This document shows, piece after piece, positions 3,352 to 61,791 of a stretch of 64,000 nucleotides of DNA; positions within the stretch are counted from its first letter, which is position 1; each line of letters opens with the position of its first letter. Where the stretch lies: the NCBI GenBank assembly GCA_000146465.1, contig CP001948.1; one strand, 5' to 3'. Under the pieces are notes generated by a model. The model made no database searches, was not told the DNA's origin, and worked only from the letters and a program-made list of their open reading frames with translations. Made by a program: the position numbers and the translations under genes.

Positions 3352-3387
3352 CTTCAGGATTAACAAAACGATCCACTAAATAACATA

Positions 3388-5891: not shown

Positions 5892-5924
5892 CTGGGAAGA
5901 AGAATATCCAAGAGTCAAAAAACT

Positions 5925-9686: not shown

Positions 9687-9707
9687 AATACTACATAAAC
9701 TATAGCT

Positions 9708-10388: not shown

Positions 10389-10393
10389 GACAA

Positions 10394-11521: not shown

Positions 11522-11557
11522 GGGCTTGGGATTTGATATCTAAATGAACAGTCTTCC

Positions 11558-12199: not shown

Positions 12200-12226
12200 G
12201 GGTGCTAGGGACCTAGAACGAATCTT

Positions 12227-12655: not shown

Positions 12656-12758
12656 CTTTGTAGGGCAGAAATAGTAAAAAATATTGATTTCCAGAGCATT
12701 TGTTTAATTCCATTTCCCAAGATAAAAATAGCCTTCCCAGAAGAGGAAAGCTTACATG

Positions 12759-13061: not shown

Positions 13062-13103
13062 GGGGTTTCCATCCCACTTGTTTTTGGCCCTGTTTCCTCC
13101 CAA

Positions 13104-13826
13104 TTATCCCTCTTCCCTATCTTCCATCTTTTTTTTCTGGTTTCTTGGCTCCTGAAGCCTGTAGAGTGTGGAAGCTTCGCTGTAGTATGCATTGCCATCT
13201 CTTATGCAGAGAACCAGGAGATTGTCTATCTTTTGTGGTGAGCATGTGAAGACTCGTCCGTCGGACATACAGGCTTTCTTGAACAGCTGGGAAGACCCTT
13301 CTTCTAGAATGGTAAAAGAATCTTTTTGGAAGTCTATCCCGTCCGACTGGATAATGACACTCTCATCTTCCGTCGACGGAAAGAGACTGTAAACCTCTTC
13401 GGCCTTGATGTTCTCGTCTGTAGGGTGAACTATTGTGTTTACATCCTCGAAGGACTCTTGGATATATTTTTGATAGTCGAAGATCTTACTCATGCTTTTC
13501 TTTATCCTTTCTCTCTCCAGAGCCTCGCCTCTTCTTTCCAGCCCACTGGAAGCTCCAAGTCGATGCCCAGGCTTTCCCGTACTTGAGGCCTCCCTTTCGA
13601 TATAGTCCATGACCATTTCTACGAAGTCTATGTCCAAGGCTTCAAGAAGATCTGTATGTAGCCGCCTTGGCACAATCTTCTCAAGGGACCCGTCAAATGA
13701 GGTGAAGTCTCTTTTTATCTGAGGCTCAATGTAGCACATCCCAGGTGTTGGTGCGGGAGGTGCATTTGCCCAGCATATGCTCTCTTCAAGCTCACGGAAG
13801 GCTTTTTCTGGATCCATCTTGGGCAT
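13104..13826 (-). CDS. Hypothetical protein, 240 aa
   Basis: ORF with no recognised motif. Its stop is immediately adjacent to the SUMO ORF. Confidence 0.4.
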   Translation of the reverse strand: MPKMDPEKAFRELEESICWANAPPAPTPGMCYIEPQIKRDFTSFDGSLEKIVPRRLHTDLLEALDIDFVEMVMDYIEREASSTGKPGHRLGASSGLERRGEALERERIKKSMSKIFDYQKYIQESFEDVNTIVHPTDENIKAEEVYSLFPSTEDESVIIQSDGIDFQKDSFTILEEGSSQLFKKACMSDGRVFTCSPQKIDNLLVLCIRDGNAYYSEASTLYRLQEPRNQKKKMEDREEG

Positions 13827-14074
13827 TGGGTTGAGAATTTTTCTAGGGTTGATTAAGGCCTTGGCAGCTTTGCCGGCGAAGAAATAAACTTTAAAATCAA
13901 GTGGTCGGGTGCTGGAGAGTAGTCTGAATCCTGTTACAGCACAAACAGCTGCCTTTCGAGTTGGACTATTGGAGTCTAAGACATCGTCCAGTTTCCAAAC
14001 TCCTTCTAGTCATTCCGTTCCGGTCATAGAAGAAGTGAACTTTTCTGTTATGAACGATTTCTGGCATTAACCAG

Positions 14075-17000
14075 ATGCCCTTTCGGCAATGTGTCTCATC
14101 TCAGACCTTCCCAAGGGCAGAGCCCCTAATCGAAAGCTTCCAGCCGCCGACAGGGGTAGGAGAAGAAAAATTTATGAATGGCAGAAAGGCCCTTTTGATG
14201 AATCTAAGGCTAGAATCGATAACAATCCACAACTTCAAAAGCTACAAAGGGACCCATGTGATCCAAGGCCTGGATCCAAGGTTCACGGCGGTAGTTGGGG
14301 CAAATGGCTCGGGGAAGAGCAACATAATAGACAGCATTCTTTTTGTGCTTGGGTTCCGAGCCCGAAGGATGCGTCATTCGTCGATGGCAGGCTTGATCTA
14401 TAGTGGAGACGGAAACCAAGACATGTGTTATGTAGAGCTAGGATTCAACAAGTTCCAAATAAGGAGAGAGGTTTCCTTGGCAGGAAGGACTAGGTATTTT
14501 GTGGATGGAGAAGAGGTACCTTGTACTATGGTGGAGTCTTTGCTCAAGAGCGAGGGTGTTGATATGGAGCACAATAGGTTTTTGATACTACAAGGAGAGA
14601 TCGAGAATATTGCTATGATCAAGCCCATGGATGGTGGTTTGCTGGAATATCTTGAGGATGTAATTGGGACTGGAGAATACAAGGCAGAGATTGAAAAGGA
14701 AGAAAGTGAGCTCCGAAGGGTCTCTGAGGAATGTGAAAGCAAGTCGGCAGCACTGAAGTTCTATGAGAAGGAATACAAACATATTGAAAGAAAGCAGGAG
14801 GAGTGTCTGAGGACAGCCAAAAGAAGAGCTGAATGCCTGTGTCTGGATCGGGATTTACATCTTCTCTTTTCAGAAAGAGGGAAAAAGAAGCTAGAAGGGC
14901 TTCTGTTGGAAAAAAAGAAGATTGAAGAAGATCTTCAGGTCCTTGAAAAGAAGAATAAAGAGAATGGAGGCAAGCTTGAGGTACTGGAAGGGAAAGGAGC
15001 AAATGCAAGAGTTTCGGCTCGAGAAGCCGAGGAGAGGTTTTTGAAGGCGAGAAAAGAATACCAGAGAGCAGAAAGACGAAATAAAATGATGGAAGAGGAC
15101 CTGGAGAGGGAGTCAAAGCGTATTGAGGAGTTATCTCGTGAGATTTCTGAAATCAGGTGTCTGGAAGATAAAAGGCAAAAGGAGGGGCTTAAATGGACAG
15201 AGGAAATTAATCGAAATGTGGAAGAGATCTCTAGATGTAGTGAATTAAGCGAGAAGCTCCGAAGTGAAATTGGAGAAGGACAGAGAAGGATTGAGAAGGA
15301 GGCCAGAAAGAGTATTGAAGAGATTTACAGAGAAGAAGAGCGGATGATGAAGCTTCTCAAGAGGAAAGGAGAGATTGGAGAGAAACAACGAGAATCGGAA
15401 TCTCGATTAGGAATTCTGATGTCGAGGAAGGAGGAGATTTTGAGAAGGGTTGGGGACATCGATGGCAGGCTATCGAAAATGGATGAAGGAAAAATAGAAA
15501 TGGGAAGGTCTGAGGAGGAAATTAGCAGGGAGATTGAAGAGATTGAGAGGGATCTGGCGAAGACAAGAAAGGAAATGAGTAGAAGAATGCAAAGGGCTGA
15601 AGAGCACAGAGAAAACGAGGAGACAAGTTGGAAGGAGAGAGAGATTCTAAGAAGTATTGAGCATGTGAAAGGAGTCTATGGAAGGCTAAGTGATCTTGGG
15701 TCTGTGGAGTCCCAATATGATAGGGCATTCAGGATTGCAGGAAAGGGATTGAACAGCATAGTTGTTGATACAACATGCACTGCAGAAGAGTGTATTTCCA
15801 TAATAAAAAGTCTGGGACTTGGGAGAGCTACATTTATAATATTGGACAGGATTTCCTCGGAGCCTAGCCTTCCTAAGGAGTCTGTGCCTTATCTGTACAA
15901 TCTTGTCAAGTGCCCAAAGGAGTTCCGAAAGTGCTTTTATTTTGCTCTGAAAGACACACTTGTATGCGAAGGATTGGAAGTGGCCGAGAGGCTTGCATTT
16001 GGAAAGACAAGAAAAAGGGTTGTGACGATTGATGGAAAGCTTATTGAGAAGAGTGGAGTCATGAGTGGAGGAAAAGGGAACGGAAGGATAAAAAGCATTG
16101 AAGAGCTTGAGAAGGCGTGCTTGAAGATGATGGAGCTGAAGAAGAAGAAAGTTTCGGAGATGGATATGGTTAGAGACTTGAAGGAAAGAGGAGCCCTATG
16201 GAAGACCCGAGAAAGACTTGCTTCGGACTTAGAGGAAGTGTGCCGGGAGATTGGGAGAGTAGAGAAGAGGATCAATCGAAAAGAGATAGAGGATATTGAA
16301 GTAGAGATTGAGAAGATTAAGAAAAAAGTGTCTTCTCTCCGAGAGGGAATTGAGAGTCTTACCGACATGGAGACCCGTAGGAAGAAAGAAAACCTTCGAA
16401 ATCTTAACGAGAGGATTGAGGTGTTTGAAAAGAGAAACCTTGAACTGAGACTGCATCTTGAAAGCAGTGGATCAGGGGAGCTTCGAGAAAAAGAGCTGGA
16501 GGTTGAAAGAAGAAAAAAAGACTTTGAAAGAATCAGCATCGAAGATATTTCAGGAATGAAGAGCAAGATGATTGAATGTGAAAGGGAATATAAAGAATGT
16601 GCAGAAAGGTTGAGGGGGATATTGAAGGAGATTGCAAACGTGAAAGCCTCTCTTGGAAACGACTACCATATGGAAATTGACCTGAAGAACAGGTTGGATG
16701 ATGCTTGCGATAAGATTGAGGAGTGGACACAGAGGATTAAGGAGAGCGAGACAAAAATAGCTTCTCTTGAGGAAGAATCCAAGAAGTATATGAGGATATG
16801 CAGGCTTGAAATCCATAGTACAGTCAAGGTTGAGGAAATGAACGAAGAGGAAATTGATCGGACAATAGGAAGGATCGGTGGCACGGTGGCAAGACTTAAA
16901 GGCGAAGAGATTGGAGAGATTGATCTAGATGTGTTTGAAGATTGTGAGAGGGCAAGGGTGGAATACGAGAAGGCAAAGGGGGAACATGGATGGTTTGAAT

Positions 17001-42626: not shown

Positions 42627-43646
42627 TCAAAGATCAAATCCCCTTGCAGCCAACTCACTCCGGACAATTTCTCTATACACTCCTTCAAGCCCGTCGAGTT
42701 CCATGGGATTAAGTTTAATCATCCTCAAGATCTTGTCTTCACAATCCTTGAGAACGGGTCTGGAGCCTTCAGGCATCTCGTTGTTGACCTGGTTTATGAT
42801 CTTCTTAAGATCCATCAAATAGTTTGGCCCAACAATCTTCTTCTTGTGTGCAGCACTACAGTTGAGCTTGAGCTCGAGGCAATCCAGAATTTCTTTTGTA
42901 GGTAGACTTTCCTTGGCATAGAAGATAGGGGCATCATGCTTCGAAGATGAAAGTTCTCCATCGGCCAAGATACAGTATGAAGTCTCGTTGCGCTTTGCCA
43001 AGCAATAAATCTCATACCTCTGTGGTTTCATTTCACAATTCTCCACTATGTATGCTGTGTCTGGATCCATGTTGCTAAGCTTGCTTCTTATGACTCGGAA
43101 CTCATCGTCCAGATGAACAACTCGAAAGTGCGCCGATAGACAGCTGCGCAGCTCCTCTAAATACATCCTCGACCTTCCCATCAGAATTATAACAGGCATC
43201 GAGGGGCTTGGGGACAAATGGATAAGACGGCTGGTAGCACTAGTCTTGTGTGAAACGGCTAATGAGGTTAGCCAGTCTTTCCTTGTTTCAGGGTCGAACG
43301 CCGAAGTTTCGTCCCATGAAACGATCGTGTTTCGTGTTTGAGAATAAATAGTAAGGTGAAAGAGACTCAAAACCAATATGCTACTGTCTCTGATATTCCC
43401 TCTTGTAGTGCTGGGAGAAAAGTTCGATGGATATGGACCCACGGCATTCGACATCTCTCTGAGCCCCGAGATTCCTCTTGAGGAGCTTACGGGATATGGT
43501 ACAAAGCATGCCAAAGAGAGAAAGAACAAAGGATTTGGAGATTTGAGTCTGGTCGACTTCAACATGGAGACAGAAGATAGCTTTGACAGAAATAAGCTGG
43601 TCGAGATTGCTTGGAATGTCTTGGACTCTTCCCACGGAACAATCAT
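42627..43646 (-). CDS. Hypothetical protein; the true start is probably internal (e.g. MPVIILMGRS...)
   Basis: 339-aa ORF whose first ~110 residues are low complexity and antisense to the next gene. The C-terminal ~190 aa look globular. Confidence 0.3.
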   Translation of the reverse strand: MIVPWEESKTFQAISTSLFLSKLSSVSMLKSTRLKSPNPLFFLSLACFVPYPVSSSRGISGLREMSNAVGPYPSNFSPSTTRGNIRDSSILVLSLFHLTIYSQTRNTIVSWDETSAFDPETRKDWLTSLAVSHKTSATSRLIHLSPSPSMPVIILMGRSRMYLEELRSCLSAHFRVVHLDDEFRVIRSKLSNMDPDTAYIVENCEMKPQRYEIYCLAKRNETSYCILADGELSSSKHDAPIFYAKESLPTKEILDCLELKLNCSAAHKKKIVGPNYLMDLKKIINQVNNEMPEGSRPVLKDCEDKILRMIKLNPMELDGLEGVYREIVRSELAARGFDL

Positions 43647-44313
43647 GACTATGCAATCAATCAGGAAGGGAGAGATCGATGCTTTGTCAATAAGGGCTCT
43701 TGGCCACTACGAGGTGCTGAACTCATCAGAAGGCTCTTACAACGTCCAGGAGGCGCCGATAACATATCTTCCAATCGTCTTTGACACACTGGTTCTTGAC
43801 CACAAGAAGAGTGGGTATGTCCGAAATCCAGAGAACAATAAAATCATCTATGCAAGCTGGGCAATATTCGAGCACAAGCGAACAAAGAGATGGTTCACTG
43901 TGGTCAATGTTGACATGTACAGCGCATACTCGGAGAAGACCGATGTCCAAATGGCAAATATTCTAGAGGATATGAATCGGGAGCACACAGTGGACTCCAA
44001 CCCGGTGTTCTTCATGGGGCACATCAATGCAATCTCGGACAGGCTTCAGAAGGTGATTGAGGACAAGTACATAAATCCTTTGGATGTAGACAGGAACGCA
44101 AAGGAAGGACCCAAGTTCACCATGAAGAATCTCCCAGATATTCTTGGCAATTTCCAGAGGGACTTTGTGTTGGTTAGAGATGCGTCATCCAAGGTGGTGA
44201 GAGTCAACTATGCAAGAATACTAAGAAAGGGCCTTCCCACCCTCCACTATCCCATTCATGCAATAGTGTCGTTTGAGGCGGGGGACCAGCACCGTACACC
44301 CTCGGCTGCCTGA
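43378..44313 (+). CDS. Hypothetical protein, 311 aa
   Basis: ORF with no secure motif. Its 5' end overlaps the upstream antisense ORF. Confidence 0.35.
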   Translation: MLLSLIFPLVVLGEKFDGYGPTAFDISLSPEIPLEELTGYGTKHAKERKNKGFGDLSLVDFNMETEDSFDRNKLVEIAWNVLDSSHGTIMTMQSIRKGEIDALSIRALGHYEVLNSSEGSYNVQEAPITYLPIVFDTLVLDHKKSGYVRNPENNKIIYASWAIFEHKRTKRWFTVVNVDMYSAYSEKTDVQMANILEDMNREHTVDSNPVFFMGHINAISDRLQKVIEDKYINPLDVDRNAKEGPKFTMKNLPDILGNFQRDFVLVRDASSKVVRVNYARILRKGLPTLHYPIHAIVSFEAGDQHRTPSAA

Positions 44314-48452: not shown

Positions 48453-49811
48453 GTGTCCCTAGAAGTGGAAAAGGAAATGAAGAGGCGGGCTTACATCTGT
48501 TTCTTTCTTGGGATTGCAACCTGCGAGATCTTTTTAACAACCATAAGACCGATTGACAACCCTAATGTTCTTATGGTTTCTGGAAAAAACGTTGTACTCA
48601 CGGCGAACAGGGAGGACGAGATGGCCACCTTCCGTGTCGAGACCCAAGACAGGAAATCCAGGTTCCTTGGAATAAAGTTTGGGAAACGGAAGCATACTGT
48701 TCTCATATCACCGGGGGACAACCCGAATCTTTATATGAAGTACAGTAAGTCGGATGGGAGGCCTACCATGGGGAAGAAAAAGAAGTACTGGGAATACAAG
48801 GAGATGAAGGATGGAGGCTACATGCTTAGTTCAAGCAAAAACAAGTGTTTGGGAGTGGTTGGGAATAGCTTCAGGATCTCCGAGTGTGGAACTGGAAAAG
48901 GCCAGGTGTTTGTTTTTGAAAGGAGAGACTACAGCGAATCTTCAAGCACTTCTAATTTTGAAGAGCAGATTTCTATTTCTTCGGAGGTTCCCTTGGTTCC
49001 TCCGGTCTCTCAAACTTCTTTGGTTTCTTCAACTTCTCGGTCCTCTCTTGTTTCTTCAACTTCTCCAACCTCTCTAACCTCTCGGATTCCTCAGTCTTCC
49101 TTTGTTTCTCAGACTTCTCCAACCTCTCGGGTTCCACAGGCAATCCAGGCCAGCCAGGCTTTCGAGGCATTGTTTCCATTTGATGAAAGTAATGACTCCG
49201 ATAGCAATAGCGACGACATGAAGCCCGTGTTTATTAATCTGGATATGAAGGACAAAAAGACAAATACAGAAACCCAGGAAAGCAGTTCTCCCATTTCGAT
49301 TTCAACGATGACAGTTTATGTATCTGTCACCAAGTCTCTTTCCGCAGGAGCGGTGTCTTCTTCACCAATAGTGACGATCATCGACAAGTTTCCGCCTGTC
49401 AGTGCCAAACTTCCTCCAAACGTGACGCTTATTCGGAACAGGATTGCATCTTCCGAGGAATCGCAGTCTTCTTGCGAGTCAAGTGATTCTTACTTGGGAA
49501 ATGAAACAGTATCTCACAAAAGTTCCAGCAGAAGCTTAGGAGGAGCCAAGAACGATGCAAATCTGGACTTTGATCTTGAGTTTTATCCAGAGCTGGGGAG
49601 GCTCCTAGACGATAGTATCCGCAAAAAGAAAGAAGAAGAGCTTCGGAAGGAAGCAACAGCTAAAAGGGCTCGAGGGAATCCTCTGGGCGAAGAAAGAAAA
49701 GACGGAGAGTTCTTTAGTGCCTTGGCATATTTAGATACCTCCATCCCAAATCCTTTACGCCAAAACCTAGCGGAAGCACAATCTGCCTGTGCAGACATTG
49801 GGCAAGTATAA
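48453..49811 (+). CDS. Secreted beta-trefoil (ricin-B-lectin-like) protein with a Ser/Thr-rich repeat stalk
   Basis: Signal peptide MKRRAYICFFLGIATCEIF. N-terminal domain with KCLGVVGNSFRISECGTGKGQVFVFE. Central S/T/P-rich imperfect repeats SQTSLVSSTSRSSLVSSTSPTSLTSRIPQSS... and an acidic C-terminus. Confidence 0.6.
   Translation: MSLEVEKEMKRRAYICFFLGIATCEIFLTTIRPIDNPNVLMVSGKNVVLTANREDEMATFRVETQDRKSRFLGIKFGKRKHTVLISPGDNPNLYMKYSKSDGRPTMGKKKKYWEYKEMKDGGYMLSSSKNKCLGVVGNSFRISECGTGKGQVFVFERRDYSESSSTSNFEEQISISSEVPLVPPVSQTSLVSSTSRSSLVSSTSPTSLTSRIPQSSFVSQTSPTSRVPQAIQASQAFEALFPFDESNDSDSNSDDMKPVFINLDMKDKKTNTETQESSSPISISTMTVYVSVTKSLSAGAVSSSPIVTIIDKFPPVSAKLPPNVTLIRNRIASSEESQSSCESSDSYLGNETVSHKSSSRSLGGAKNDANLDFDLEFYPELGRLLDDSIRKKKEEELRKEATAKRARGNPLGEERKDGEFFSALAYLDTSIPNPLRQNLAEAQSACADIGQV
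48990..49140 (+). repeat. Imperfect in-frame tandem repeats of ~27 nt encoding S/T-rich peptides
   Basis: Recurring units tcaaacttctttggtttcttcaacttctcggtcctctcttgtttcttcaacttctccaacctctc...cagacttctccaacctctcgg. Confidence 0.6.
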
Positions 49812-49845
49812 TATAAATAAATGTAAATGGATGCCAACTCTCTGT

Positions 49846-50502
49846 TTAATAAGGAGCCCTTCTAAGCCGGGTTATATCGACCACGCCTATAATTTTCTCT
49901 ATCTTTCTGAATATATCGTACATCTTGTGAATCATTTTACGGGTTCTAGCCTTTTCATTAAGCTTCAGCACGGCCTTGAGTGAAGGAATCATCACGAAGG
50001 TTTGGGAATTGTCTCCAGGATTGCAGTCTGTAAAGGAAAGTGCCCATCCGCTTACTCCCTCATAGTTGATTTCGTTTCCAACTGTAAGACACTTTCCTTC
50101 CGATATAAGCTGGAATTTCACACTGTTTGGAAGCCTTTTCAAGTAGATGGAGGACGGTGAGATCTTCATCCTCACGCCTTTCAGGGAGGAGTGAACGTCT
50201 GCTATTTCTATGCAGCGCTCCTTCTTGAGCTCCAGCCACACCTTCTTTGAAAAGCTCTCGTACTTCAAGTCAAAAACCTGGTTTTCCATCATCTCCTTAG
50301 AAAACTCAGAGAGTAGGGCTGGTAGGCTTATTCTTTCTGGATGGATGGTGTCAAACACGGTTAAGGGTTGATTCCGGTGCAGCACATTCAGCATCATTAC
50401 CCCGTCATAATCGGAGTTCCGAAGATGCCTATTGGACCTACCACAAGGCCCATATCCTCTTTGGAATGAATATGCAAATGCAAAGAATAACAACAACATC
50501 AC
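49846..50502 (-). CDS. Secreted beta-trefoil (ricin-B-lectin-like) protein
   Basis: Signal peptide MMLLLFFAFAYSF, and KCLTVGNEINYEGV...CNPGDNSQTFVM shared with the other lectin-like paralogs. Confidence 0.5.
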   Translation of the reverse strand: MMLLLFFAFAYSFQRGYGPCGRSNRHLRNSDYDGVMMLNVLHRNQPLTVFDTIHPERISLPALLSEFSKEMMENQVFDLKYESFSKKVWLELKKERCIEIADVHSSLKGVRMKISPSSIYLKRLPNSVKFQLISEGKCLTVGNEINYEGVSGWALSFTDCNPGDNSQTFVMIPSLKAVLKLNEKARTRKMIHKMYDIFRKIEKIIGVVDITRLRRAPY

Positions 50503-50568: not shown

Positions 50569-50933
50569 TCAGAAGCAGGGCTGCTCCCCAGAGACATAAG
50601 TCAAGTCGGAAGAAGAAAGTTTATTTCGCATTGTACTGCTTGACCATGTTAATAAAAACCTTCCCTGCAGGCGTAGATGGGCATATGACCCTCCTGCAAA
50701 AATACGTCTGCATGACTTGCATTTCCATATTCCAACTGCCGTTCTCTTCACACTCTTCTTTCCACATGCCTCACAGCTGTACTTGGCCCTCTGTGTTTCA
50801 AGAACCGCTTTCATTCTCTTACGGAGAGTCGATCCATATCTTGCTCCGAAAGAGCCTGCAATCCCTACCTTCTTGGTTTTTCCCTATAAGTTAGTCTGCT
50901 TCAGAATCCCCTTGGTCCCAAGTCACTTACCAT
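50569..50933 (-). CDS. RPL43: Ribosomal protein eL43 (L37a), two exons: ATG at 50931-50933, intron 50884-50930, exon 2 from 50883 downward
   Basis: Spliced product [69 protein letters not shown] matches the eL43 N-terminus and C4 zinc ribbon. The track ORF lacks the first 27 residues. The 3' portion appears frameshifted; see findings. Confidence 0.85.
50884..50930 (-). other. Spliceosomal intron, 47 nt, immediately after the start codon of eL43
   Basis: mRNA sense: ATG|GTAAGTGACTTGGGACCAAGGGGATTCTGAAGCAGACTAACTTATAG|GGAAAAACC. The 5' splice site is GTAAGT, the branch point ACTAAC lies 5 nt before a 3' AG, and splicing restores the reading frame. Confidence 0.85.
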
Positions 50934-53839: not shown

Positions 53840-54724
53840 TCATGATGTGCTGGAATCTCGAGATTTCTTCTTCTTTTTATCAACCTTCAGAAGAGACTTT
53901 GCAAGCTTCTTCTTGAAACGAGAACCAAGGCGCTTCATTTTCTTCTTAATTCTTGGCTTCTTGAACCTCACGTGTTCCATAAACTCTTCAAGGGATTCTT
54001 CATCACTCTTTGGCTCCCGATGCTTCTTTTTTTTCTTTTCTTTCTTTTTGGTCTTCTCTTTCTTTTCCTCTCTTTCTTCTTCCTCTTTCTTCTCATCCTC
54101 CTCTAGATTTTTCTTGCATCCAGGCTCCTCGTCATCAGTGGTTTCCGAGGAGATTCTTTCCTCTTGGTCCTTTTCCTTGGTATCTTTCTCGCCATCCTTA
54201 TCTCGATCCCCATGCAAGCCTCTCCTGCTCTTCTCTAGATATTCGCATCTATCTCTAAAAACTTTGATTTGGAATCGGAATTCCAGAGACTCTCTTCCAG
54301 GTGGCATGCACTCTTTGAACTTCACTTCTCTACCCACATCTGCCATACATAGTCCACTGTCATGCCCTATCACAATACTTTTGCACTTTGTTGGTGACAC
54401 AAAATGGAACTCAAATCCAGATGGAATATCCTTTCCTCTTCTTTTGTGTCCTCTATAGATTGTCATTCTTCTATATTTGCTATCTACAGTTAGATATCCT
54501 TCCCTTGTATAAAGCTTAAATCCATAAGGCACATTTCTATTCCAATCATATCCAAAAACATAGTCTTCTCTTCTCCGCTTGTCAACAGGCTCTAACCTCA
54601 GAGTTCTTAAGTTAAGGTATCTTCCACTCATCATGGATTTGATTGCAATCCCCATCCTTGACACTACCATTCCCAGATGCAATAGGATATAAACATTCAT
54701 GGCACCTTCCGAGATGCAAACCAC
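53840..54724 (-). CDS. Hypothetical protein with a K/E-rich low-complexity C-terminus
   Basis: Globular N-terminal ~170 aa followed by a (K/E)n tail encoded by the aaga/ctt-rich tract at ~53,990-54,130. Confidence 0.4.
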   Translation of the reverse strand: MVCISEGAMNVYILLHLGMVVSRMGIAIKSMMSGRYLNLRTLRLEPVDKRRREDYVFGYDWNRNVPYGFKLYTREGYLTVDSKYRRMTIYRGHKRRGKDIPSGFEFHFVSPTKCKSIVIGHDSGLCMADVGREVKFKECMPPGRESLEFRFQIKVFRDRCEYLEKSRRGLHGDRDKDGEKDTKEKDQEERISSETTDDEEPGCKKNLEEDEKKEEEEREEKKEKTKKKEKKKKKHREPKSDEESLEEFMEHVRFKKPRIKKKMKRLGSRFKKKLAKSLLKVDKKKKKSRDSSTS

Positions 54725-56337: not shown

Positions 56338-57588
56338 ATGGAAGACATTCTTTTGAGAGGAATAAAGCAGAAGAAAAAGAGGATTCTAAAGGAGGAAGTT
56401 GAGTACAACGTCGATGGAGAAAGACTACCCCTTCTTAACACATTTGACAGTCTAAAGACAAAAGCTCCTTTTTCCTCTCCTCTTTTGGCCCAGAAGGTCG
56501 TTGTGCCGTATTTCATGAAGAAGTACAACATTATTGTACAGGCCTTTACTGGGAGCGGGAAAACACTATCGTACTGCCTACCGCTTGTCGAGACTGCACG
56601 AAACGAGAATCTTTTTGGAATGATACTTGTTCCTGGAAGGGCGCTTGTGAGACAAGTCTATAGGGTTGTAAGAGAAATCAAGCACAGGGAACTGGAGATC
56701 AAGGGGATCTACAGAGATGGTTCCGAGGACTTCTTTGTTGAAGAGGATGAAGAAGGGGGATTGGTTGAGAGGAGAATCGACAGTAGAACACAAAAGGAGA
56801 TTGCTGGGTTCCCTCGGGAAGGAGGAAGAATTGTAATAGGAACGCTCCCGTCGATTCTTAGTTTGATGGATCTGTTTGAAATGAAAGCTATCACACATCT
56901 TATTATAGACGAGGCAGATCTCCTGATAAACCCCGAGACCATCGATGTTTTTGCATCTATTCTTCAGGAAATAGACGTGGAGAAGACACATGTCGGATGT
57001 TTTAGTGCTACTATGAACGAGTATGTTGAGCAGGTTATAGAAACAGTGAAGAACATCACAAAGATACATATTGTGTCGAGGAAACATATAGACCATGAGT
57101 TTGTATTTGGGACAAACAGAAAGATCAAACACCTATCGCTGCTACAGATCGTTGCAGATGGAATTGAATCACCGACCCTGATATTTGTCAGAAATGAAGA
57201 GACCGGGGAGTTTTTAAGTAAGCTGCTGGATAGAAGCGGAGTTTATAAAGAAGGAAGCGGGGAAAGCGCAGAAGTCCTTGACGACTTCCGGCTAAAGAAG
57301 ATCTGGTACCTGTTTGCAACAGATGCATTGAGTAGAGGAATAGACTTCTATAACATTAGGAGTGTGATAAACTATGATCTTCCAGATACTAAGACCCAGC
57401 TTGTGCATAGGGTTGGAAGAGTCAATAGAAATTGCCAGGGACAAAAGGTGTATACAATCTATTCGGGCGAAGACTTTGGAAGAATCTCCCTTGTTGCCGA
57501 GTTTCTAGAGGAGAACGGACATGAGATACCAAGCCACATTACTCGGATTATAGAAAAGAGCCGGAAAAGGATTGGCAGGAGGAGCTAG
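56338..57588 (+). CDS. DEAD-box ATP-dependent RNA helicase
   Basis: Motif I AFTGSGKT, motif II IIDEADLL (DEAD), motif III SAT, motif VI HRVGRVNR. A CCC motif lies upstream of the ATG. Confidence 0.85.
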   Translation: MEDILLRGIKQKKKRILKEEVEYNVDGERLPLLNTFDSLKTKAPFSSPLLAQKVVVPYFMKKYNIIVQAFTGSGKTLSYCLPLVETARNENLFGMILVPGRALVRQVYRVVREIKHRELEIKGIYRDGSEDFFVEEDEEGGLVERRIDSRTQKEIAGFPREGGRIVIGTLPSILSLMDLFEMKAITHLIIDEADLLINPETIDVFASILQEIDVEKTHVGCFSATMNEYVEQVIETVKNITKIHIVSRKHIDHEFVFGTNRKIKHLSLLQIVADGIESPTLIFVRNEETGEFLSKLLDRSGVYKEGSGESAEVLDDFRLKKIWYLFATDALSRGIDFYNIRSVINYDLPDTKTQLVHRVGRVNRNCQGQKVYTIYSGEDFGRISLVAEFLEENGHEIPSHITRIIEKSRKRIGRRS

Positions 57589-58109
57589 CTCCTTTCCTCC
57601 TCTTCGGAGTCTGTGCAGAACGAATCCATATCGTCAACCATCTCTGCTATCCGGGTGCTAACGGGGTCTACGAGTCCTTCCACTTTCCCAACAAGATCCA
57701 TTTTCCTGCGGATTCCATTTGAGTTTTTGGACACCCGAGTAGTACTGTCTATCTGAAACAGCTGGGATGCACTCCTGAAGTCGGATGGATCGAAGCATGG
57801 AGACATCTCCAAGCCTTCTTCTGTGTAAGTTAGACATTGGTCCTCCGAGCATATGATTGTGCCTAATTGCCTGTCGTACACATTCCAGTAAAACTCATCG
57901 TCGCCAATGCTTACTGAATCATTTCCAGATATATACAAGTTTCCTATTGTTATTGCATATTTTCCCTCTTTTTCCTCGATGCTTGTGTTGATCAAGGGAA
58001 TTCTGCCAACCTTTAGTTCTAGATCCGGCTTGAGGAATAGCCTTATCTCCACCGGATTCTTAATATGCCCACAAGCACCCGATAATAAAAGTAGAAATAT
58101 AAATTCCAT
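57585..58109 (-). CDS. Secreted beta-trefoil (ricin-B-lectin-like) protein
   Basis: Signal peptide MEFIFLLLLSGACG, and QCLTYTEEGLEMSPCFDPSD...QLFQI shared with the other lectin-like paralogs. Confidence 0.5.
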   Translation of the reverse strand: MEFIFLLLLSGACGHIKNPVEIRLFLKPDLELKVGRIPLINTSIEEKEGKYAITIGNLYISGNDSVSIGDDEFYWNVYDRQLGTIICSEDQCLTYTEEGLEMSPCFDPSDFRSASQLFQIDSTTRVSKNSNGIRRKMDLVGKVEGLVDPVSTRIAEMVDDMDSFCTDSEEEERS

Positions 58110-58179
58110 ATCTTTTTATTTACTTCCAGGCATCCTGGTATTTATAAATGGGCTTCATCTACGATTGACAGACAAATAT

Positions 58180-58938
58180 TTACCACAACTTCTTACAAAA
58201 CGGGAAACTAAACCAAGGCATGGAGAAGCTGGAAGGACCGAACTTGGGCCTCCTCCAATTAAAATCCCATAACTTGCGAAGGACATCCTTTACATCATCC
58301 TTTCCATCAAGGTCCGGAAGGTTTTTTTTGGCATACTTCGAGAAGTCATTCTTGTCCTCCAGGTTCTTCTTAATCTTTTCTACCTCATCTCTATTTTTCC
58401 TTCCCAGGTTTTCTAATTTCTTTTTGAGCTTGAGCTGTTGCACCATTTCTGCCTCAGTTCTAGGCTTTGCGTTTAGATCGACCGAATCCAGACAACTTTC
58501 AACACCCATATCTTCAAAGAGGAAGACATGACTTCTACTTCTCCCGTTGCACCTCTCCAACACAAGTTTATTCTCATCCCTAGTGCTAAGGCAATATCCT
58601 TCCTGGGATACAGTGAATCCATCTCCACTCTTGGATATTTCCCAGAAATCTATGCTGTCCTCGCATTTAAGAAGATCCCTACCCTTCCGACACAACCAGG
58701 AGTCTCCAACACGAATCTTAAAGACTCGTCCATTCCTGTTGATCTGAGATCTTGTGTTATGTCCGTAAGTTAAATTAAGCTCATCCACAGCTCTAAAAGG
58801 GTTTGATCCAAAGTCTCTTTTGAGTTCGGAGACAAGAAGATGATACTCTGCTGCCAAGATTCTGATAGGTTTGTTGGTAAATGAGTCGAGGTATAGCGGA
58901 TAGGAAAATGCCATTCCAAGAACCAATATCAGAATCAT
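58180..58938 (-). CDS. Secreted beta-trefoil (ricin-B-lectin-like) protein with a lysine-rich C-terminal tail
   Basis: Signal peptide MILILVLGMAFSYP. DSWLC, DFWEI, YCLSTRDENKLVLERCNGRSRSHVFLFE, and a K-rich tail KLKKKLENLGRKNRDEVEKIKKNLEDK. Confidence 0.55.
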   Translation of the reverse strand: MILILVLGMAFSYPLYLDSFTNKPIRILAAEYHLLVSELKRDFGSNPFRAVDELNLTYGHNTRSQINRNGRVFKIRVGDSWLCRKGRDLLKCEDSIDFWEISKSGDGFTVSQEGYCLSTRDENKLVLERCNGRSRSHVFLFEDMGVESCLDSVDLNAKPRTEAEMVQQLKLKKKLENLGRKNRDEVEKIKKNLEDKNDFSKYAKKNLPDLDGKDDVKDVLRKLWDFNWRRPKFGPSSFSMPWFSFPFCKKLW

Positions 58939-59047
58939 GGATGTTGATCTGTATTCCCACTATTTAAAGAAGATGTGATACACGAGTTAGGAGATGTTTA
59001 CGCAAATCACAAGACAATCTTCAGTATAATCGTTTTTAATCCACGAA

Positions 59048-59887
59048 CTAGAAAATTATAGGATCCCTCCTAACCAGATTTTTACTTCTGTAATGGTGAG
59101 GAGAATGATGATGATCTAAGTGCACCCTTTTGACCCCAGAATGGGGGTTTCTTGTCAAGACATGTGTGACAGTCACTTCTTCTTCCTTTGGCAAGGTTTC
59201 TTCATACAAGGGGAAGTCCGCTTCGTCTCCTGAATAGCTGGAGACGTCCCCTTGCTGAGAAAAGGAAGTGTTTCTATTCTTTTCTCTCTTAATGGGGAGG
59301 ATGATGTTCTTATTTACATCTCCCTTTGTCTTTATCCTGATGGATGAAGGACATTCACTCTCTGGATGAAATATATTCACATTTGTTGTCATATTCTTTC
59401 TCCCTTCGTTCCTCAGAAGGGACCCTATGTCTCCACATCCCCCGAGGTCTGCAAGCTTGAAGCTAAATATCTGATCGTCCGTATTGACACAGATCTTCAT
59501 CTGAATGGACTCCTCAGGACCCTTGGTAATGCATTTGTTGTCCGTAGAGATTGTGTATCCAAACTCCTTTCTGTCTATGTCCCAGGGTCTTTCTTCTTTG
59601 CACTTCACCACCGAGTTTCCATCTTTGCATATGTTATTTTCTCCAAATATCACAACATACTTCTCTCCAGACTTCACCAGCCTCGCCCTTGTAACAAACT
59701 TGTACTTGCTTGGATTCACATACTTGCTGTGAGACACTAGAAGCCCATTTTCCTCTTCTAGCCCAAGAATCTGTGTGGGATAGGACGAAAAAAAAACCTT
59801 GATGTCTTTTTCAACAAACTCCTCTAACTCTCTGTCCCTTGCGCTAACAAAGATTGACATAAACATCAAGATCAAACCCGGTTCCAT
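59048..59887 (-). CDS. Secreted beta-trefoil (ricin-B-lectin-like) protein
   Basis: Signal peptide MEPGLILMFMSIFVSA at an internal ATG. YVVIFGENNICKDG...KCITKGPEESIQMKICVNTDDQIFSFK shared with the other lectin-like paralogs. Confidence 0.55.
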   Translation of the reverse strand: MEPGLILMFMSIFVSARDRELEEFVEKDIKVFFSSYPTQILGLEEENGLLVSHSKYVNPSKYKFVTRARLVKSGEKYVVIFGENNICKDGNSVVKCKEERPWDIDRKEFGYTISTDNKCITKGPEESIQMKICVNTDDQIFSFKLADLGGCGDIGSLLRNEGRKNMTTNVNIFHPESECPSSIRIKTKGDVNKNIILPIKREKNRNTSFSQQGDVSSYSGDEADFPLYEETLPKEEEVTVTHVLTRNPHSGVKRVHLDHHHSPHHYRSKNLVRRDPIIF

Positions 59888-59993
59888 GCTTTCCAGAACG
59901 GCTTTTCTTTTGTATAAAATCGTTGAAACCACAGAGGCCTGTCTCACCCCATCATGCGATGAGAAGAAACTCTGTTCCAGACCTGAAGCATTA

Positions 59994-61229
59994 TCATTGA
60001 AATAACTTTGGCTTTCCCTTTGTCTCCCTGACACAGAGGAGTACAAATACACTGAAGACTAGGCAAAGACCTCCGTAAATCCCAGACATAACTTGTGCAT
60101 GGTTATAGTTCAGAGGATGTAGCAAGGTTGTTGTTATGAATCCAAATAGCCAATTGAAACTGACTCCAAACTCAAAGCCGGTGGATGTATATCTCGAGGG
60201 AAATATCTCTGCCGAGATTATCCATGGGATTACTGCAAGCCCGAGGTTGAATCCAATAAAGCAGATTATCACTCCTAGAAGGGGAAACCTGTCCATGGCA
60301 AGAGGGATCATTCCAAATGCCATTATTGTCGAAGAGATGATCGACATTGTTTTCCTCCCAAATCTATCAACTATCAGTCCACAGAATGCAGTTGTTATAA
60401 ACGATACAAACAAAGAAGAACTTGTCATCAGGTTGGGATATTTGCTACTCGAGAATAGGCAAGACTGCTGAAACGTCAAAAAGTTGATTCCAGACAGATG
60501 GTGGAAGGCGTGGAATACTACTGTTATTGCAATCGACTTTGCGGATCCAGGGGTCCTGATTAATTCCTTCATGGATGGCCTGGTGTTGAATGTATTTGGT
60601 GTTCTTGGATGGGGACTTCTAATAAATGCAAATCCTATCGTCTGGAGAACAAGGAACACAAGCATTGCAACGAATGGGATCCTGTAGCTTTCCTTGTTTC
60701 CAAAGAAGTTGAACATGGAGCCTACAAAGAGTCCCCCAACTATCCCGACTGGCTGGAGACTGGCCAGGAACCCCCGGATATGGTCTGGAGCAATGGCATC
60801 TATATAAGATGAAATTGATCCAGAAGTGAGGTCGAGTGCAAATCCAAGTATGAATCTGGACGTTAAATAATGAGCAAAATCCAATGTCATCAGCGGGGTT
60901 GCAAACACAATCATATATATGACGTTGGCTACGATCAACTTCACTTTGTCGTTAGTGAAAGACACAAACTTGAAGATAATTCCTGCAATAAATGCACCTA
61001 GGAAGTGTGTTCCTGGGATTAATGCTTCATGGTATATGGTGTAGGTCTTTCCAGTAGACTCTGTAAAGTGATCTTCTATCAAGCCATAGAGACAGGACAG
61101 GCTTATCAGAGAGACCCCAAATGTAAAGGCTGTCAGAACAACCAAGATCAGGCTGGCAAGCTCTCTTTTGGAAAAGACTTGGTGTTTCATCGATGCTTGG
61201 AGATGTCCCAAAACTTTTATATACTTCAT
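59994..61229 (-). CDS. Major facilitator superfamily transporter (sugar/solute)
   Basis: About 12 hydrophobic helices and the MFS loop motif VDRFGRKTM (D-R-x-G-R-K). The start could be the ATG at 61229 or the one at 61190. Confidence 0.7.
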   Translation of the reverse strand: MKYIKVLGHLQASMKHQVFSKRELASLILVVLTAFTFGVSLISLSCLYGLIEDHFTESTGKTYTIYHEALIPGTHFLGAFIAGIIFKFVSFTNDKVKLIVANVIYMIVFATPLMTLDFAHYLTSRFILGFALDLTSGSISSYIDAIAPDHIRGFLASLQPVGIVGGLFVGSMFNFFGNKESYRIPFVAMLVFLVLQTIGFAFIRSPHPRTPNTFNTRPSMKELIRTPGSAKSIAITVVFHAFHHLSGINFLTFQQSCLFSSSKYPNLMTSSSLFVSFITTAFCGLIVDRFGRKTMSIISSTIMAFGMIPLAMDRFPLLGVIICFIGFNLGLAVIPWIISAEIFPSRYTSTGFEFGVSFNWLFGFITTTLLHPLNYNHAQVMSGIYGGLCLVFSVFVLLCVRETKGKPKLFQ

Positions 61230-61242
61230 TTTTGGAATAGGG

Positions 61243-61791
61243 ATGCCGGTAAAAGAAAAGGAAGAGGTTCTTCTGAAGGATATCAAGGAGGATGTTCAGA
61301 GTGTAAGAGACGCAGTTGTCTTGTCGGACGACGTGTCCAGGATTGACGAGTATAACTTTGAGAGTCTTTTTGGAATATATAAAAATCCGCAGCAGCAAGT
61401 GGTCTTTGTAAGGACGATATATAGGCAGTTAGTAGGAGAGATCTTAAAGTTTTTCTCCTCGAAATGTGTTGCAGAGGCAATGACTAACATCTGCATTCTC
61501 GAAGAAGTCTTTAGGAGCCAGAGGGGGTACATTGACATAGAGATGAGTCTGGAGGATGTGGAGTGCATTAACCAGCATGCATATTCCTTGGGAAAGAAGG
61601 AAAACTCCGGAGTGGTGAGGGAAGGTATACGGGCATGGAACTGTCTAAAGCAGAGAAAGGCTATTCGAATATGTGTCATGCCATTTCCAGATGACGAACG
61701 AAGTTTAATGCTTATTGAAGAAGAATTAGAGGCCATATCGAAGACTCTTGATGGTTGGGAAGATTCTAGAGATGGGAACTGTACAAATTAA
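61243..61791 (+). CDS. Hypothetical protein
   Basis: ORF starting at the internal MPVKEKEE; the upstream part is antisense to the MFS gene. Confidence 0.35.
   Translation: MPVKEKEEVLLKDIKEDVQSVRDAVVLSDDVSRIDEYNFESLFGIYKNPQQQVVFVRTIYRQLVGEILKFFSSKCVAEAMTNICILEEVFRSQRGYIDIEMSLEDVECINQHAYSLGKKENSGVVREGIRAWNCLKQRKAIRICVMPFPDDERSLMLIEEELEAISKTLDGWEDSRDGNCTN

What the first reader, a model, noticed from the sequence alone, without database searches (positions are those of the whole stretch)
48453..50502. Second mini-cluster of the same secreted lectin-like family, convergently arranged
The genes at 48453-49811 (+) and 49846-50502 (-) carry the same signal peptide and KCLxVG...C...Q[VT]F[VM] motif as the 57.6-59.9 kb array. 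That makes five paralogs in 12 kb, which suggests local duplication and divergence of a secreted family, as expected for accessory or host-facing genes.
Basis: partly seen in the sequence, partly recalled or inferred. Interest (0 to 1): 0.6.

Follow-up and report, generated by a model that had tools for sequence, protein, structure and literature searches.

The report
Ancient ricin-B-lectin (PTP4/PTP5-type) gene pair
The two convergent genes are real, very old members of the known microsporidian family of secreted ricin-B-lectin-like proteins, which includes polar tube proteins PTP4 and PTP5 10 kb away, so the finding is correct but mostly already described.

Summary
The window is Encephalitozoon intestinalis ATCC 50506 chromosome VII. 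The two genes are Eint_070940 (A, 48477-49811 +) and Eint_070950 (B, 49846-50499 -). They are convergent and 34 bp apart.

- **Observation:** it holds. Both have a hydrophobic signal-like N-terminus and the C-[LI]…C…Q-x-F motif. This motif also occurs in Eint_071030, Eint_071040 (PTP5) and Eint_071050 (PTP4).
- **Homology:** pairwise BLAST does not link A or B to the array. Signal-peptide-free ortholog profiles do (A-B 2.6e-6, A-PTP5 2e-6, B-PTP4 2.9e-5).
- **Literature:** a 2025 paper already lists Eint_070940 among 14 E. intestinalis ricin-B-lectin (RBL) proteins. Every annotation I saw for B's family says only "hypothetical protein".
- **Interpretation:** "recent local duplication of accessory genes" is not supported. 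All six genes are one-to-one orthologs in six Encephalitozoon-type genomes and evolve under purifying selection. In Nosema bombycis the same genes form one contiguous array (PTP4, PTP5, two Eint_071030-like genes, L37ae, B, A-like gene), so the two mini-clusters look like halves of one ancient array.
- **Copy number:** only Ordospora colligata differs, lacking the PTP4/PTP5 block at this locus.
- **Function:** a spore or polar-tube role is inferred, not shown.

The parts
48477..49811 (+). Gene A = Eint_070940 (444 aa). Signal-like N-terminus, one ricin-B-like beta-trefoil domain, a long Ser/Thr/acidic low-complexity tail and a conserved basic C-terminus.
   Evidence: Exact protein look-up; UniRef name 'Ricin B lectin domain-containing protein'. 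Listed as RBL protein number 13 of 14 in PMC11972355. Orthologs in six further genomes.
48522..48944 (+). Beta-trefoil (RBL) domain of A, residues about 16-156. The gamma-repeat motif CLGVVGNSFRISECGTGKGQVF is at 48846-48911.
   Evidence: Domain limits from PMC11972355. hhalign of the domain to B 2.6e-6, C 7.9e-6, D 2e-6, E 9e-5. Pfam CCL2-like lectin hit below threshold, E 0.026. Motif.
49008..49083 (+). Imperfect 27-bp and 9-bp tandem repeats encoding Ser/Thr-rich units (SQTSLVSST...). They lie inside a stretch that is an insertion in E. intestinalis relative to the other species.
   Evidence: Tandem Repeats Finder; ortholog alignment.
49812..49845 (.). 34-bp AT-rich spacer between the two convergent stop codons; it contains AATAAA-like runs.
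   Evidence: Sequence read directly.
49846..50499 (-). Gene B = Eint_070950 (217 aa). Signal-like N-terminus, beta-trefoil domain and C-terminal helices.
   Evidence: Exact look-up, named only 'uncharacterized protein'. 27 representative relatives at E <= 1e-3 among 1.84 billion proteins. AlphaFold2 model pLDDT 88.5, pTM 0.84.
49984..50400 (-). Beta-trefoil domain of B (residues 34-172, 12 strands). The gamma-repeat motif C137...C159...Q166-T-F168 is at 49996-50091. It includes a long hairpin (residues 136-158) between the two invariant Cys.
49879..49983 (-). C-terminal helical extension of B (residues 173-207), present in the aligned family members.
   Evidence: Model; alignment A3.
50569..50933 (-). 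Ribosomal protein L37ae gene, the conserved upstream neighbour of B. It serves as an anchor for synteny.
   Evidence: L37ae lies next to the B ortholog in loci L001-L006, L008, L009 and L010. Coordinates.
53840..54700 (-). Gene F = Eint_070990 (286 aa), a candidate sixth family member. Signal-like N-terminus, a Cys-containing domain of about 135 aa and a Lys/Glu-rich tail.
   Evidence: The E. hellem ortholog is named 'Ricin B lectin doma...' by UniRef. No significant profile link: best 0.038 to C, and gamma-third to gamma-third 2-3e-3. No Pfam hit. Its position is collinear with a C-like RBL gene in N. bombycis.
57585..58109 (-). Gene C = Eint_071030 (174 aa), an RBL protein.
   Evidence: RBL number 14 in PMC11972355. 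hhalign to D 1.1e-6 and E 2.8e-7.
58180..58938 (-). Gene D = Eint_071040 (252 aa), probable PTP5. Assigned by its position next to PTP4 and by the 'PTP5' clade in the literature.
   Evidence: UniRef name 'Ricin B lectin domain-containing protein'. Pfam Ricin_B_lectin E 0.014, below threshold. ptp4/ptp5 adjacency described in PMC5413088 and PMC10759460.
59048..59887 (-). Gene E = Eint_071050 = polar tube protein 4 (PTP4), 279 aa.
   Evidence: Named PTP4 (Eint_071050) in PMC11972355. The E. cuniculi ortholog ECU07_1090 is annotated PTP4 in PMC10759460 supplement.

Best explanation
**What the genes are.** A (Eint_070940) and B (Eint_070950) are two anciently diverged members of the microsporidian family of secreted single-domain ricin-B-lectin-like (RBL, beta-trefoil) proteins. 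This is the family of polar tube proteins PTP4, PTP5 and PTP6. Each protein has a signal peptide and one beta-trefoil. In its third repeat the trefoil keeps the ricin-type pair of Cys residues and the QxW-type (here QxF) core motif.
- A adds a long Ser/Thr-rich tail that is probably disordered and glycosylated.
- B adds an extra hairpin and a C-terminal helix.

**How they arose.** Together with Eint_071030, PTP5, PTP4 and possibly Eint_070990, they are what remains of one old tandem array. That array is still contiguous in Nosema bombycis. In the Encephalitozoon/Ordospora lineage, housekeeping genes now interrupt it.

**Inferred mechanism (not shown here).** Like most of their paralogs, they are made late in spore formation and enter the secretory pathway. 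They are then built into the polar tube or spore surface. There the trefoil acts as a binding module, either for glycans on mannosylated polar tube proteins during assembly or for host surface molecules during invasion.
For: **Identity**
- Exact protein look-ups place the window in E. intestinalis chromosome VII.

**Homology of A and B to the PTP4/PTP5 array**
- Domain-only profile-profile E-values range from 2e-6 to 1.2e-4.
- A's HMM ranks D, E and C first among 315 window ORFs.
- The motif is enriched five-fold over shuffles.

**Fold of B**
- AlphaFold2 with a 28-sequence alignment gives pLDDT 88.5 and pTM 0.84, with 12 strands.
- The 79 Foldseek matches at E <= 1e-3 that were listed are all beta-trefoils.
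- Recurrent below-threshold Pfam hits of B relatives go to Ricin_B_lectin, CDtoxinA and RicinB_lectin_2.

**Fold of A**
- PMC11972355 reports a ricin-B fold for residues 16-156.

**Antiquity**
- Gene order is identical in E. cuniculi, E. hellem, E. romaleae and two unnamed relatives.
- B relatives occur in O. colligata, N. bombycis and Dictyocoela muelleri.
- The N. bombycis array is contiguous: PTP4 / PTP5 / C-like / C-like / L37ae / B / A-like.
- dN/dS is 0.08-0.25.

**Function by analogy (literature)**
- PTP4 sits at the polar tube tip and binds TfR1 (PMC5413088).
- 10 of 12 PTP4/PTP6-type paralogs are upregulated in the late sporoblast cluster, and the N-termini of 15 PTP/RBL proteins drive secretion of GFP (PMC11972355).
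- RBL proteins are enriched in affinity-purified Vairimorpha necatrix polar tubes (PMC10931468).
Against: - No Pfam ricin model reaches its gathering score for any of the six proteins.
- Pairwise BLAST does not link A or B to the array.
- B's HMM alone finds no paralog in the window.
- Profile-profile probabilities are moderate (54-89%), and most of the signal comes from the third repeat.
- Whether A and B are among the genes upregulated in late sporoblasts, or were in the secretion assay, could not be read because the supplements are not held.
- Neither protein has been localised.
- In ricin B chain (from memory: Asp22 and Asp234) a sugar-contacting Asp follows the Cys/Leu strand. By eye, that position is Gly, Thr or Ser here (CLGV, CLTV, CLTY, CLST, CITK), so classic galactose binding is doubtful.
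Confidence: 0.8

Rival explanations
1. One reading: a young, lineage-specific expansion. Recent tandem duplicates are diverging fast under host pressure, so copy number should vary between close relatives.
For: The genes are clustered and secreted, and sequence identity between paralogs is very low (16-21%). A is the fastest-evolving gene of the region (45% identity between E. intestinalis and E. cuniculi). A also carries an E. intestinalis-specific repeat insertion.
Against: Orthologs are one-to-one in identical order in six genomes. A, B and F are also in place in O. colligata. B and the array are present in N. bombycis. dN/dS is 0.08-0.25 for all six genes, and B (0.08-0.13) is close to its housekeeping neighbours at 0.03-0.15.
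Confidence: 0.04
2. A and B are not homologous to PTP4/PTP5. The shared signal peptide and the Cys...Cys...QxF motif are convergent or chance features of small secreted beta-rich proteins.
For: Pairwise BLAST is not significant. Pfam hits are below threshold. B's HMM does not find the paralogs. The top Foldseek hits of B are IL-18, a different beta-trefoil superfamily.
Confidence: 0.07
3. Same family, different job. A and/or B are effectors exported into the host cell, as reported for NbRBL28 which enters the host nucleus, rather than components of the polar tube or spore wall.
For: NbRBL28 of N. bombycis is reported to be secreted into the host nucleus (PMC9224602). A has conserved basic stretches near its C-terminus (IRKKKEEELRKEATAKRAR in E. 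intestinalis, with basic equivalents in orthologs) that resemble a nuclear localisation signal. Two of the 12 E. intestinalis paralogs are not upregulated in the late sporoblast cluster, and these could include A or B.
Against: Most characterised members (PTP4, PTP5, PTP6, RBLL-1) localise to the polar tube or spore wall (PMC10759460). 10 of 12 paralogs are co-regulated with PTPs. Basic tails also occur in PTP4. No localisation data exist for A or B.
Confidence: 0.15
4. Same family and location, but the trefoil is a protein-binding module rather than a carbohydrate-binding lectin, so 'lectin-like' describes the fold only.
For: PTP4's identified partner is a protein, TfR1, with direct in vitro binding (PMC5413088). 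The canonical sugar-contacting Asp position appears substituted in all five proteins (sequence read by eye against ricin, from memory). Only two of three QxW-type motifs are recognisable in B: Q74-V-F76 and Q166-T-F168.
Against: TfR1 is a glycoprotein, and PTP4 still bound TfR1-knockout cells. RBL proteins of other microsporidia are described as promoting adhesion via glycans (PMC10931468). Beta-trefoil lectins use varied sites.
Confidence: 0.4

Closest known systems
Polar tube protein 4 (PTP4: EhPTP4, ECU07_1090, Eint_071050) and PTP5 (Eint_071040)
   Same: Signal peptide plus a single ricin-B-like beta-trefoil with the C...C...[QH]xF third repeat. Same chromosome region. Contiguous with A/B homologs in N. 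bombycis. Profile-profile E 2e-6 (A-PTP5) and 2.9e-5 (B-PTP4).
   Different: Paralogs share only 16-21% identity. A has a Ser/Thr-rich tail of about 290 residues instead of PTP4's shorter His-rich tail. B has an extra long hairpin between the two Cys and a C-terminal helix. No localisation or host-receptor data exist for A or B.
Microsporidian RBL catalogues: 14 RBL proteins of E. intestinalis (PMC11972355), 13 RBL clades of Nosematida (PMC10759460), 52 NbRBLs of N. bombycis (PMC9224602)
   Same: A is explicitly in the E. intestinalis list, as is Eint_071030. The family is described as secreted, clustered in the genome and extremely divergent in sequence.
   Different: B's N. bombycis orthologs NBO_6g0012 and NBO_462g0006 are absent from the part of the 52-NbRBL table (Table 2) that was returned, and from that paper's main text and held supplements. 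Yet they lie next to NbRBL02/03 and NbRBL33/34. Whether B is in the other two catalogues could not be read. By its extra hairpin and one gene per species it may be the 'RBL1' clade of PMC10759460 (inference).
RBLL-1 / ECU08_1700-1730 ricin-B-lectin cluster of E. cuniculi chromosome VIII
   Same: Same protein family, tandem arrangement, and a role in invasion reported (cited).
   Different: It is a different chromosome and a different clade. That cluster is the one usually cited as 'the' syntenic RBL cluster, and its copy number does vary between species. The chromosome VII set studied here does not vary within Encephalitozoon.
R-type (ricin B chain / CBM13) lectin domains, botulinum HA1/HA33, CdtA, fungal ricin-B-like lectins (CNL, SSA)
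   Different: 8-14% identity. Pfam models are not reached. The QxW Trp is replaced by Phe. The canonical sugar-binding Asp is apparently not conserved. No carbohydrate binding has been shown.

Membership tests
Ricin-type beta-trefoil lectin domain (R-type lectin; Pfam PF00652 / PF14200, clan CL0066) | Beta-trefoil fold: 12 strands in three pseudo-repeats. | tested here: met
Ricin-type beta-trefoil lectin domain (R-type lectin; Pfam PF00652 / PF14200, clan CL0066) | Sequence match to the curated family model above its gathering score. | tested here: not met
   Best hits are below threshold: D Ricin_B_lectin 16 bits against a cut-off of 29; A CCL2-like 15 against 27; B none. B relatives reach at best E 0.0087. 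The PDB sequence-profile search found nothing.
Ricin-type beta-trefoil lectin domain (R-type lectin; Pfam PF00652 / PF14200, clan CL0066) | (QxW)3 core motif, one per repeat. | tested here: inconclusive
   B has Q74-V-F76 (nearly invariant Q) and invariant Q166-x-F168 but no clear first-repeat motif. A, C and E have QxF in the third repeat only, and D has HVF. Trp is replaced by Phe, as also noted for NbRBLs.
Ricin-type beta-trefoil lectin domain (R-type lectin; Pfam PF00652 / PF14200, clan CL0066) | Carbohydrate binding (galactose/GalNAc type) through conserved Asp, aromatic and Asn/Gln residues. | not testable with these tools
   By eye, the Asp position after the Cys strand is Gly, Thr or Ser in all five proteins. 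The ricin reference residues are from memory. No residue-level structural alignment or binding assay was available.
Microsporidian PTP4/PTP6-type secreted RBL proteins | N-terminal signal peptide followed by a single RBL domain. | tested here: met
   Hydrophobic N-termini in all six proteins. One trefoil-sized domain each. Experimental secretion of 15 PTP/RBL N-termini is reported in PMC11972355, but the gene list is not visible.
Microsporidian PTP4/PTP6-type secreted RBL proteins | Detectable homology to established members (PTP4, PTP5). | tested here: met
   hhalign A-D 2e-6, A-C 7.9e-6, B-E 2.9e-5, A-B 2.6e-6; HMM of A against window ORFs. F: not met (best 0.038).
Microsporidian PTP4/PTP6-type secreted RBL proteins | Genomic clustering with other family members. 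| tested here: met
   Five or six members lie within 11.4 kb here. In N. bombycis scaffold NBO_6 the homologs form a contiguous array.
Microsporidian PTP4/PTP6-type secreted RBL proteins | Expression in late sporoblasts and localisation to the polar tube or spore wall. | not testable with these tools
   The literature gives 10 of 12 paralogs upregulated in cluster P4. Per-gene data for Eint_070940 and Eint_070950 are in supplements that are not held.

The most novel reading that the evidence does not exclude
B (Eint_070950) may represent a widely conserved, mostly one-gene-per-genome RBL clade that sequence-based catalogues have missed.
- It is "hypothetical protein" in every annotation seen.
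- Its N. bombycis orthologs are absent from the visible part of the 52-member NbRBL table, and from that paper's text and held supplements.
- Its distinguishing features are an extra hairpin and a C-terminal helix.
- It is locked next to the L37ae gene at the centre of an ancestral PTP4 / PTP5 / ... / L37ae / B / A array.

On this reading, the Encephalitozoon "two mini-clusters" are a split version of that array, and B is an uncharacterised core component of the invasion apparatus.
Probability: 0.35. Interest if true: 0.35.

Novelty: already known. Interest (0 to 1): 0.2.

Why it matters
RBL proteins are the largest recognisable class of microsporidian invasion-apparatus proteins, and E. intestinalis infects humans. 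This check adds three modest points to what is published:

- **Family membership of Eint_070950.** It is tied to the family by profile comparison and by fold. It is otherwise unannotated, and its Nosema orthologs are absent from the part of a published catalogue that I could read.
- **Origin of the clusters.** The chromosome VII RBL genes, including PTP4 and PTP5, are collinear with a single contiguous array in Nosema bombycis. This dates the duplications to before the split of those lineages.
- **Mode of evolution.** These genes are fixed, conserved core genes rather than variable accessory genes. Within this region, that argues against an arms-race reading.

None of this changes the current picture of the family. 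It gives two candidates (A and B) for localisation and binding studies.

Tried and rejected
- **Direct Pfam scan of the six proteins.** It gave only below-threshold hits, so Pfam alone neither confirms nor refutes the family.
- **Pairwise BLASTP.** It failed for A, B and F.
- **First hhalign run.** It was made in global mode by mistake and gave meaningless values. I discarded it and repeated the run in local mode.
- **First AlphaFold2 run of B.** With the six close orthologs the model was unusable (pLDDT 44.6). It worked only after adding 22 distant relatives from the representative search.
- **PDB sequence-profile searches.** Searches with the B and F alignments returned nothing.
- **AlphaFold database Foldseek library.** It was not available.
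- **Testing F.** I tried Pfam on seven orthologs, two homolog searches, whole-domain and third-by-third profile comparison, and comparison with the N. bombycis positional counterpart. The best values were 2e-3 to 4e-2, so F stays a candidate only.
- **Looking for A, B and F in published lists.** The supplements of PMC11972355 are not held. The supplements of PMC10759460 gave only PTP4 = ECU07_1090. A full-text search for the locus tags found nothing beyond PMC11972355 and its preprint.
- **L37ae-B adjacency in Dictyocoela muelleri.** No L37ae gene is called on the 6.4-kb contig that carries the B relative.
- **dN/dS.** Synonymous sites are saturated (dS about 1 or undefined) even between E. 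hellem and E. romaleae, so the ratios are only rough.
Full report
**1. Where the window comes from**

Exact-sequence look-ups of seven predicted proteins all hit Encephalitozoon intestinalis ATCC 50506. The genes of interest, with the labels used below, are:

| Label | Locus tag | Window coordinates | Strand | Length |
|---|---|---|---|---|
| A | Eint_070940 | 48477-49811 | + | 444 aa |
| B | Eint_070950 | 49846-50499 | - | 217 aa |
| F | Eint_070990 | 53840-54700 | - | 286 aa |
| C | Eint_071030 | 57585-58109 | - | 174 aa |
| D | Eint_071040 | 58180-58938 | - | 252 aa |
| E | Eint_071050 | 59048-59887 | - | 279 aa |

- UniRef calls A and D "Ricin B lectin domain-containing protein". The other four are "uncharacterized".
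- E is polar tube protein 4 (PTP4) according to PMC11972355. Its E. cuniculi ortholog ECU07_1090 carries the same label in PMC10759460.
- D is the gene next to ptp4. The literature describes ptp4 and ptp5 as always adjacent, so D is probably PTP5.

**2. Checking the observation**

This is a eukaryote, and the deposited proteins start at the first ATG (48477 and 50499).
- The two stop codons face each other across 34 AT-rich bases.
- All six proteins start with a strongly hydrophobic segment. Among the other 49 of the 55 ATG-ORFs of at least 170 aa in the window, three do.
Shuffled proteins give about one.

**3. Do the paralogs align outside the signal peptide?**

By pairwise BLASTP, only the array does: D-E 5e-9 and C-E 7e-5. 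A and B score no better than E 0.27 against any array member (A-B is 2.4), and F no better than 0.87 against any paralog.

To go further I fetched the orthologous loci from five further genomes:
- E. cuniculi (L001), E. hellem (L004) and E. romaleae (L005);
- two unnamed read-archive assemblies (L002, L003).

I then built ortholog alignments and compared profiles. After removing signal peptides and tails, hhalign gave the following:

| Pair | E-value | Probability |
|---|---|---|
| A-B | 2.6e-6 | 89% |
| A-C | 7.9e-6 | 84% |
| A-D | 2e-6 | 89% |
| A-E | 9e-5 | 59% |
| B-E | 2.9e-5 | 74% |
| B-C | 1.2e-4 | 54% |
| C-D, C-E, D-E | 1e-6 to 1.6e-10 | 91-97% |

- A's profile HMM, run against all 315 ORFs of at least 70 aa in the window, ranks D (4e-5), E (1.3e-3) and C (0.018) as its best non-self hits.
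- F shows no significant link (best 0.038). Only its third repeat aligns in register with the third repeats of B and A, at 2-3e-3.

**4. The fold of B**

- A search of 1.84 billion representative proteins with the B profile found 27 relatives, most of them about 200 aa long.
- In the 28-sequence alignment C137, C159, Q166 and F168 are invariant, and Q74 is nearly so.
- Scanned one by one against Pfam, these proteins give recurrent but below-threshold hits to Ricin_B_lectin (4 members), CDtoxinA (3) and RicinB_lectin_2 (2).
- AlphaFold2 failed with the six close orthologs (pLDDT 44.6). With the 28-sequence alignment it gave a confident model (pLDDT 88.5, pTM 0.84). The model has 12 strands between residues 34 and 172, followed by helices 173-207.
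- The Foldseek matches that were listed are all beta-trefoils, led by IL-18, HA33 and a mushroom lectin.

B is therefore a beta-trefoil, most like the ricin type. It has a long hairpin (residues 136-158) between its two invariant Cys. For A, PMC11972355 reports the same fold for residues 16-156.

**5. What is already published**

[quoted passage not shown] It names Eint_070940 and Eint_071030 explicitly.
- The same paper shows that 10 of the 12 are upregulated with the polar tube proteins in the late sporoblast cluster. It also shows that the first 40 residues of 15 PTP/RBL proteins drive GFP secretion from human cells.
- PMC10759460 (2024) sorts 74 RBLs of Nosematida into 13 clades, including PTP4, PTP5, PTP6 and RBLL-1. 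Its conserved clades RBL1 and RBL2 have one gene per species, and RBL1 has an extra beta-strand pair in a loop. B's features fit RBL1, but I could not confirm this from the held supplements.
- PMC9224602 (2022) lists 52 NbRBLs in N. bombycis, centred on scaffold NBO_6.
- The RBL cluster usually cited for E. cuniculi is a different one, ECU08_1700-1730.
- No paper in the held library mentions Eint_070950 or ECU07_0960 in its text.

**6. Synteny and age**

The gene order, read in B's orientation, is E, D, C, [DEAD helicase, NAD kinase, proteasome alpha], F, [WD40, SSRP1], L37ae, B, A (convergent), DPH2.

- **Encephalitozoon-type genomes.** This order is identical in all five fetched loci and in the window.
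- **Ordospora colligata (L006).** The locus was identified by a 100% match of its F ortholog to OCOL_000841. It keeps A (HMM 8.7e-14), B and F (7.6e-24) in place. The block C-D-E plus the neighbouring sugar transporter is absent there: the DEAD helicase gene lies 72 bp from the ortholog of window gene 61243-61791. This agrees with the remark in PMC10759460 that O. colligata is missing from the PTP4 and PTP5 clades.
- **More distant relatives.** B relatives sit next to L37ae in two short read-archive contigs and in N. bombycis. No L37ae gene is called on the D. muelleri contig.
- **N. bombycis scaffold NBO_6 (L010).** The order is contiguous:
  1. NbRBL01, the PTP4 ortholog (E-profile 2.4e-37)
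  2. a 271-aa PTP5 ortholog (1.8e-20)
  3. a 153-aa C-like gene
  4. a 207-aa C-like gene (hhalign to C 1.8e-10)
  5. L37ae
  6. NBO_6g0012, the B ortholog (1.8e-48)
  7. a convergent 817-aa gene whose N-terminal domain resembles A (7.7e-5)
  8. NbRBL02
  9. NbRBL03

This order is collinear with E. intestinalis once the housekeeping genes are removed. The simplest reading (an inference) is a single ancient tandem array that was later split in the Encephalitozoon/Ordospora lineage. The B orthologs NBO_6g0012 and NBO_462g0006 do not appear in the part of the 52-NbRBL table that was returned, nor elsewhere in that paper's text or held supplements.

**7. Selection**

Nei-Gojobori estimates for E. 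intestinalis against E. cuniculi, and for E. hellem against E. romaleae:

| Gene | dN/dS |
|---|---|
| A | 0.20-0.25 |
| B | 0.08-0.13 |
| F | 0.14 |
| C | 0.15 |
| D | 0.09 |
| E | 0.11 |
| six housekeeping neighbours | 0.03-0.15 |

Synonymous sites are saturated, so these values are rough. Even so, nothing suggests diversifying selection over whole genes. B is as conserved as its neighbours (76-86% identity). A is the fastest, largely because of its low-complexity tail. That tail in E. intestinalis carries an extra Ser/Thr-rich stretch with 27-bp repeats.

**8. How it most likely works**

- **Shown here:**
  - membership of the family;
  - the beta-trefoil fold of B;
  - signal-like N-termini;
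  - ancient origin;
  - conserved position.
- **Taken from the literature for paralogs:**
  - PTP4 is at the polar tube tip and binds host TfR1, and blocking it lowers infection.
  - RBLs co-purify with the polar tube of V. necatrix.
  - Most E. intestinalis paralogs are co-expressed with PTPs, and tested N-termini work as signal peptides.
- **Inferred for A and B:** synthesis during spore formation, entry into the secretory pathway, deposition in the polar tube or spore surface, and use of the trefoil as a binding module.
- **Open question:** whether the ligand is a sugar. By eye, the position of ricin's sugar-contacting Asp (from memory) is Gly, Thr or Ser in all five proteins.
- **Minority alternative:** an effector role in the host, as reported for NbRBL28.

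**9. Verdict**

The family assignment is right, and for A it is already published. The evolutionary reading of recent local duplication of accessory genes is wrong: these are old, fixed, conserved genes. The novelty is small. It consists of evidence that the unannotated B family belongs to the RBLs, and that the two mini-clusters are halves of one ancient array that includes PTP4 and PTP5.

Noticed in passing
window 53840-54700 (-): Eint_070990 lies between the two mini-clusters and has the same build: signal-like N-terminus, a domain of about 135 aa with the pattern GLCMADVGREVKFKEC...EFRF, then a Lys/Glu-rich tail. UniRef names its E. hellem ortholog a ricin B lectin domain protein. It may be a sixth family member.
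   Followed up: partly
window 50569-50933 (-), especially 50670-50685: The ribosomal protein L37ae gene has an intron directly after its ATG (50884-50930). Relative to E. cuniculi it also has an apparent 1-nt deletion near its 3' end. The open frame runs on to a TGA at 50569-50571 with an unrelated tail. The conserved ending (...[17 protein letters not shown], stop at 50621-50623) is in another frame. This may be an assembly error or a real frameshift.
   Followed up: partly
L006 (Ordospora colligata) 1880-3829, compared with window 56338-61791: In O. colligata the four-gene block Eint_071030 / PTP5 / PTP4 / sugar transporter is absent from this locus. The DEAD helicase gene lies 72 bp from the ortholog of window gene 61243-61791. 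A, B and F are retained. I did not test whether the block was lost or moved elsewhere in that genome.
   Followed up: partly
L010 (Nosema bombycis scaffold NBO_6) 5568-16203: Homologs of PTP4, PTP5, two C-like genes, L37ae, B, an 817-aa A-like gene, NbRBL02 and NbRBL03 lie side by side. The B ortholog NBO_6g0012 and its duplicate NBO_462g0006 do not appear in the part of the published 52-member NbRBL table that was returned, nor elsewhere in that paper's text or held supplements.
   Followed up: yes
window 49008-49083 (+): Imperfect 27-bp and 9-bp tandem repeats encode Ser/Thr-rich units in gene A. They lie within a stretch that is present in E. intestinalis but missing from the five other orthologs aligned. 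This suggests recent repeat expansion in a probably O-glycosylated tail.
   Followed up: partly
window 43378-44313 (+): Another ORF (311 aa) has a strongly hydrophobic signal-like N-terminus (MLLSLIFPLVVLGEKF...). Its orthologs have no Pfam hit on record. None of the six family profiles matched it, so it seems to be an unrelated secreted or membrane protein of unknown function.
   Followed up: partly
L008 (unnamed read-archive contig) 3-2814: A distant relative, Nosema-like by its 173-aa protein that closely resembles the N. bombycis 207-aa gene, shows the same local order: C/D-like RBL gene, L37ae, B relative, then a convergent gene with a low-complexity tail. The contig is too short to see more.
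   Followed up: partly
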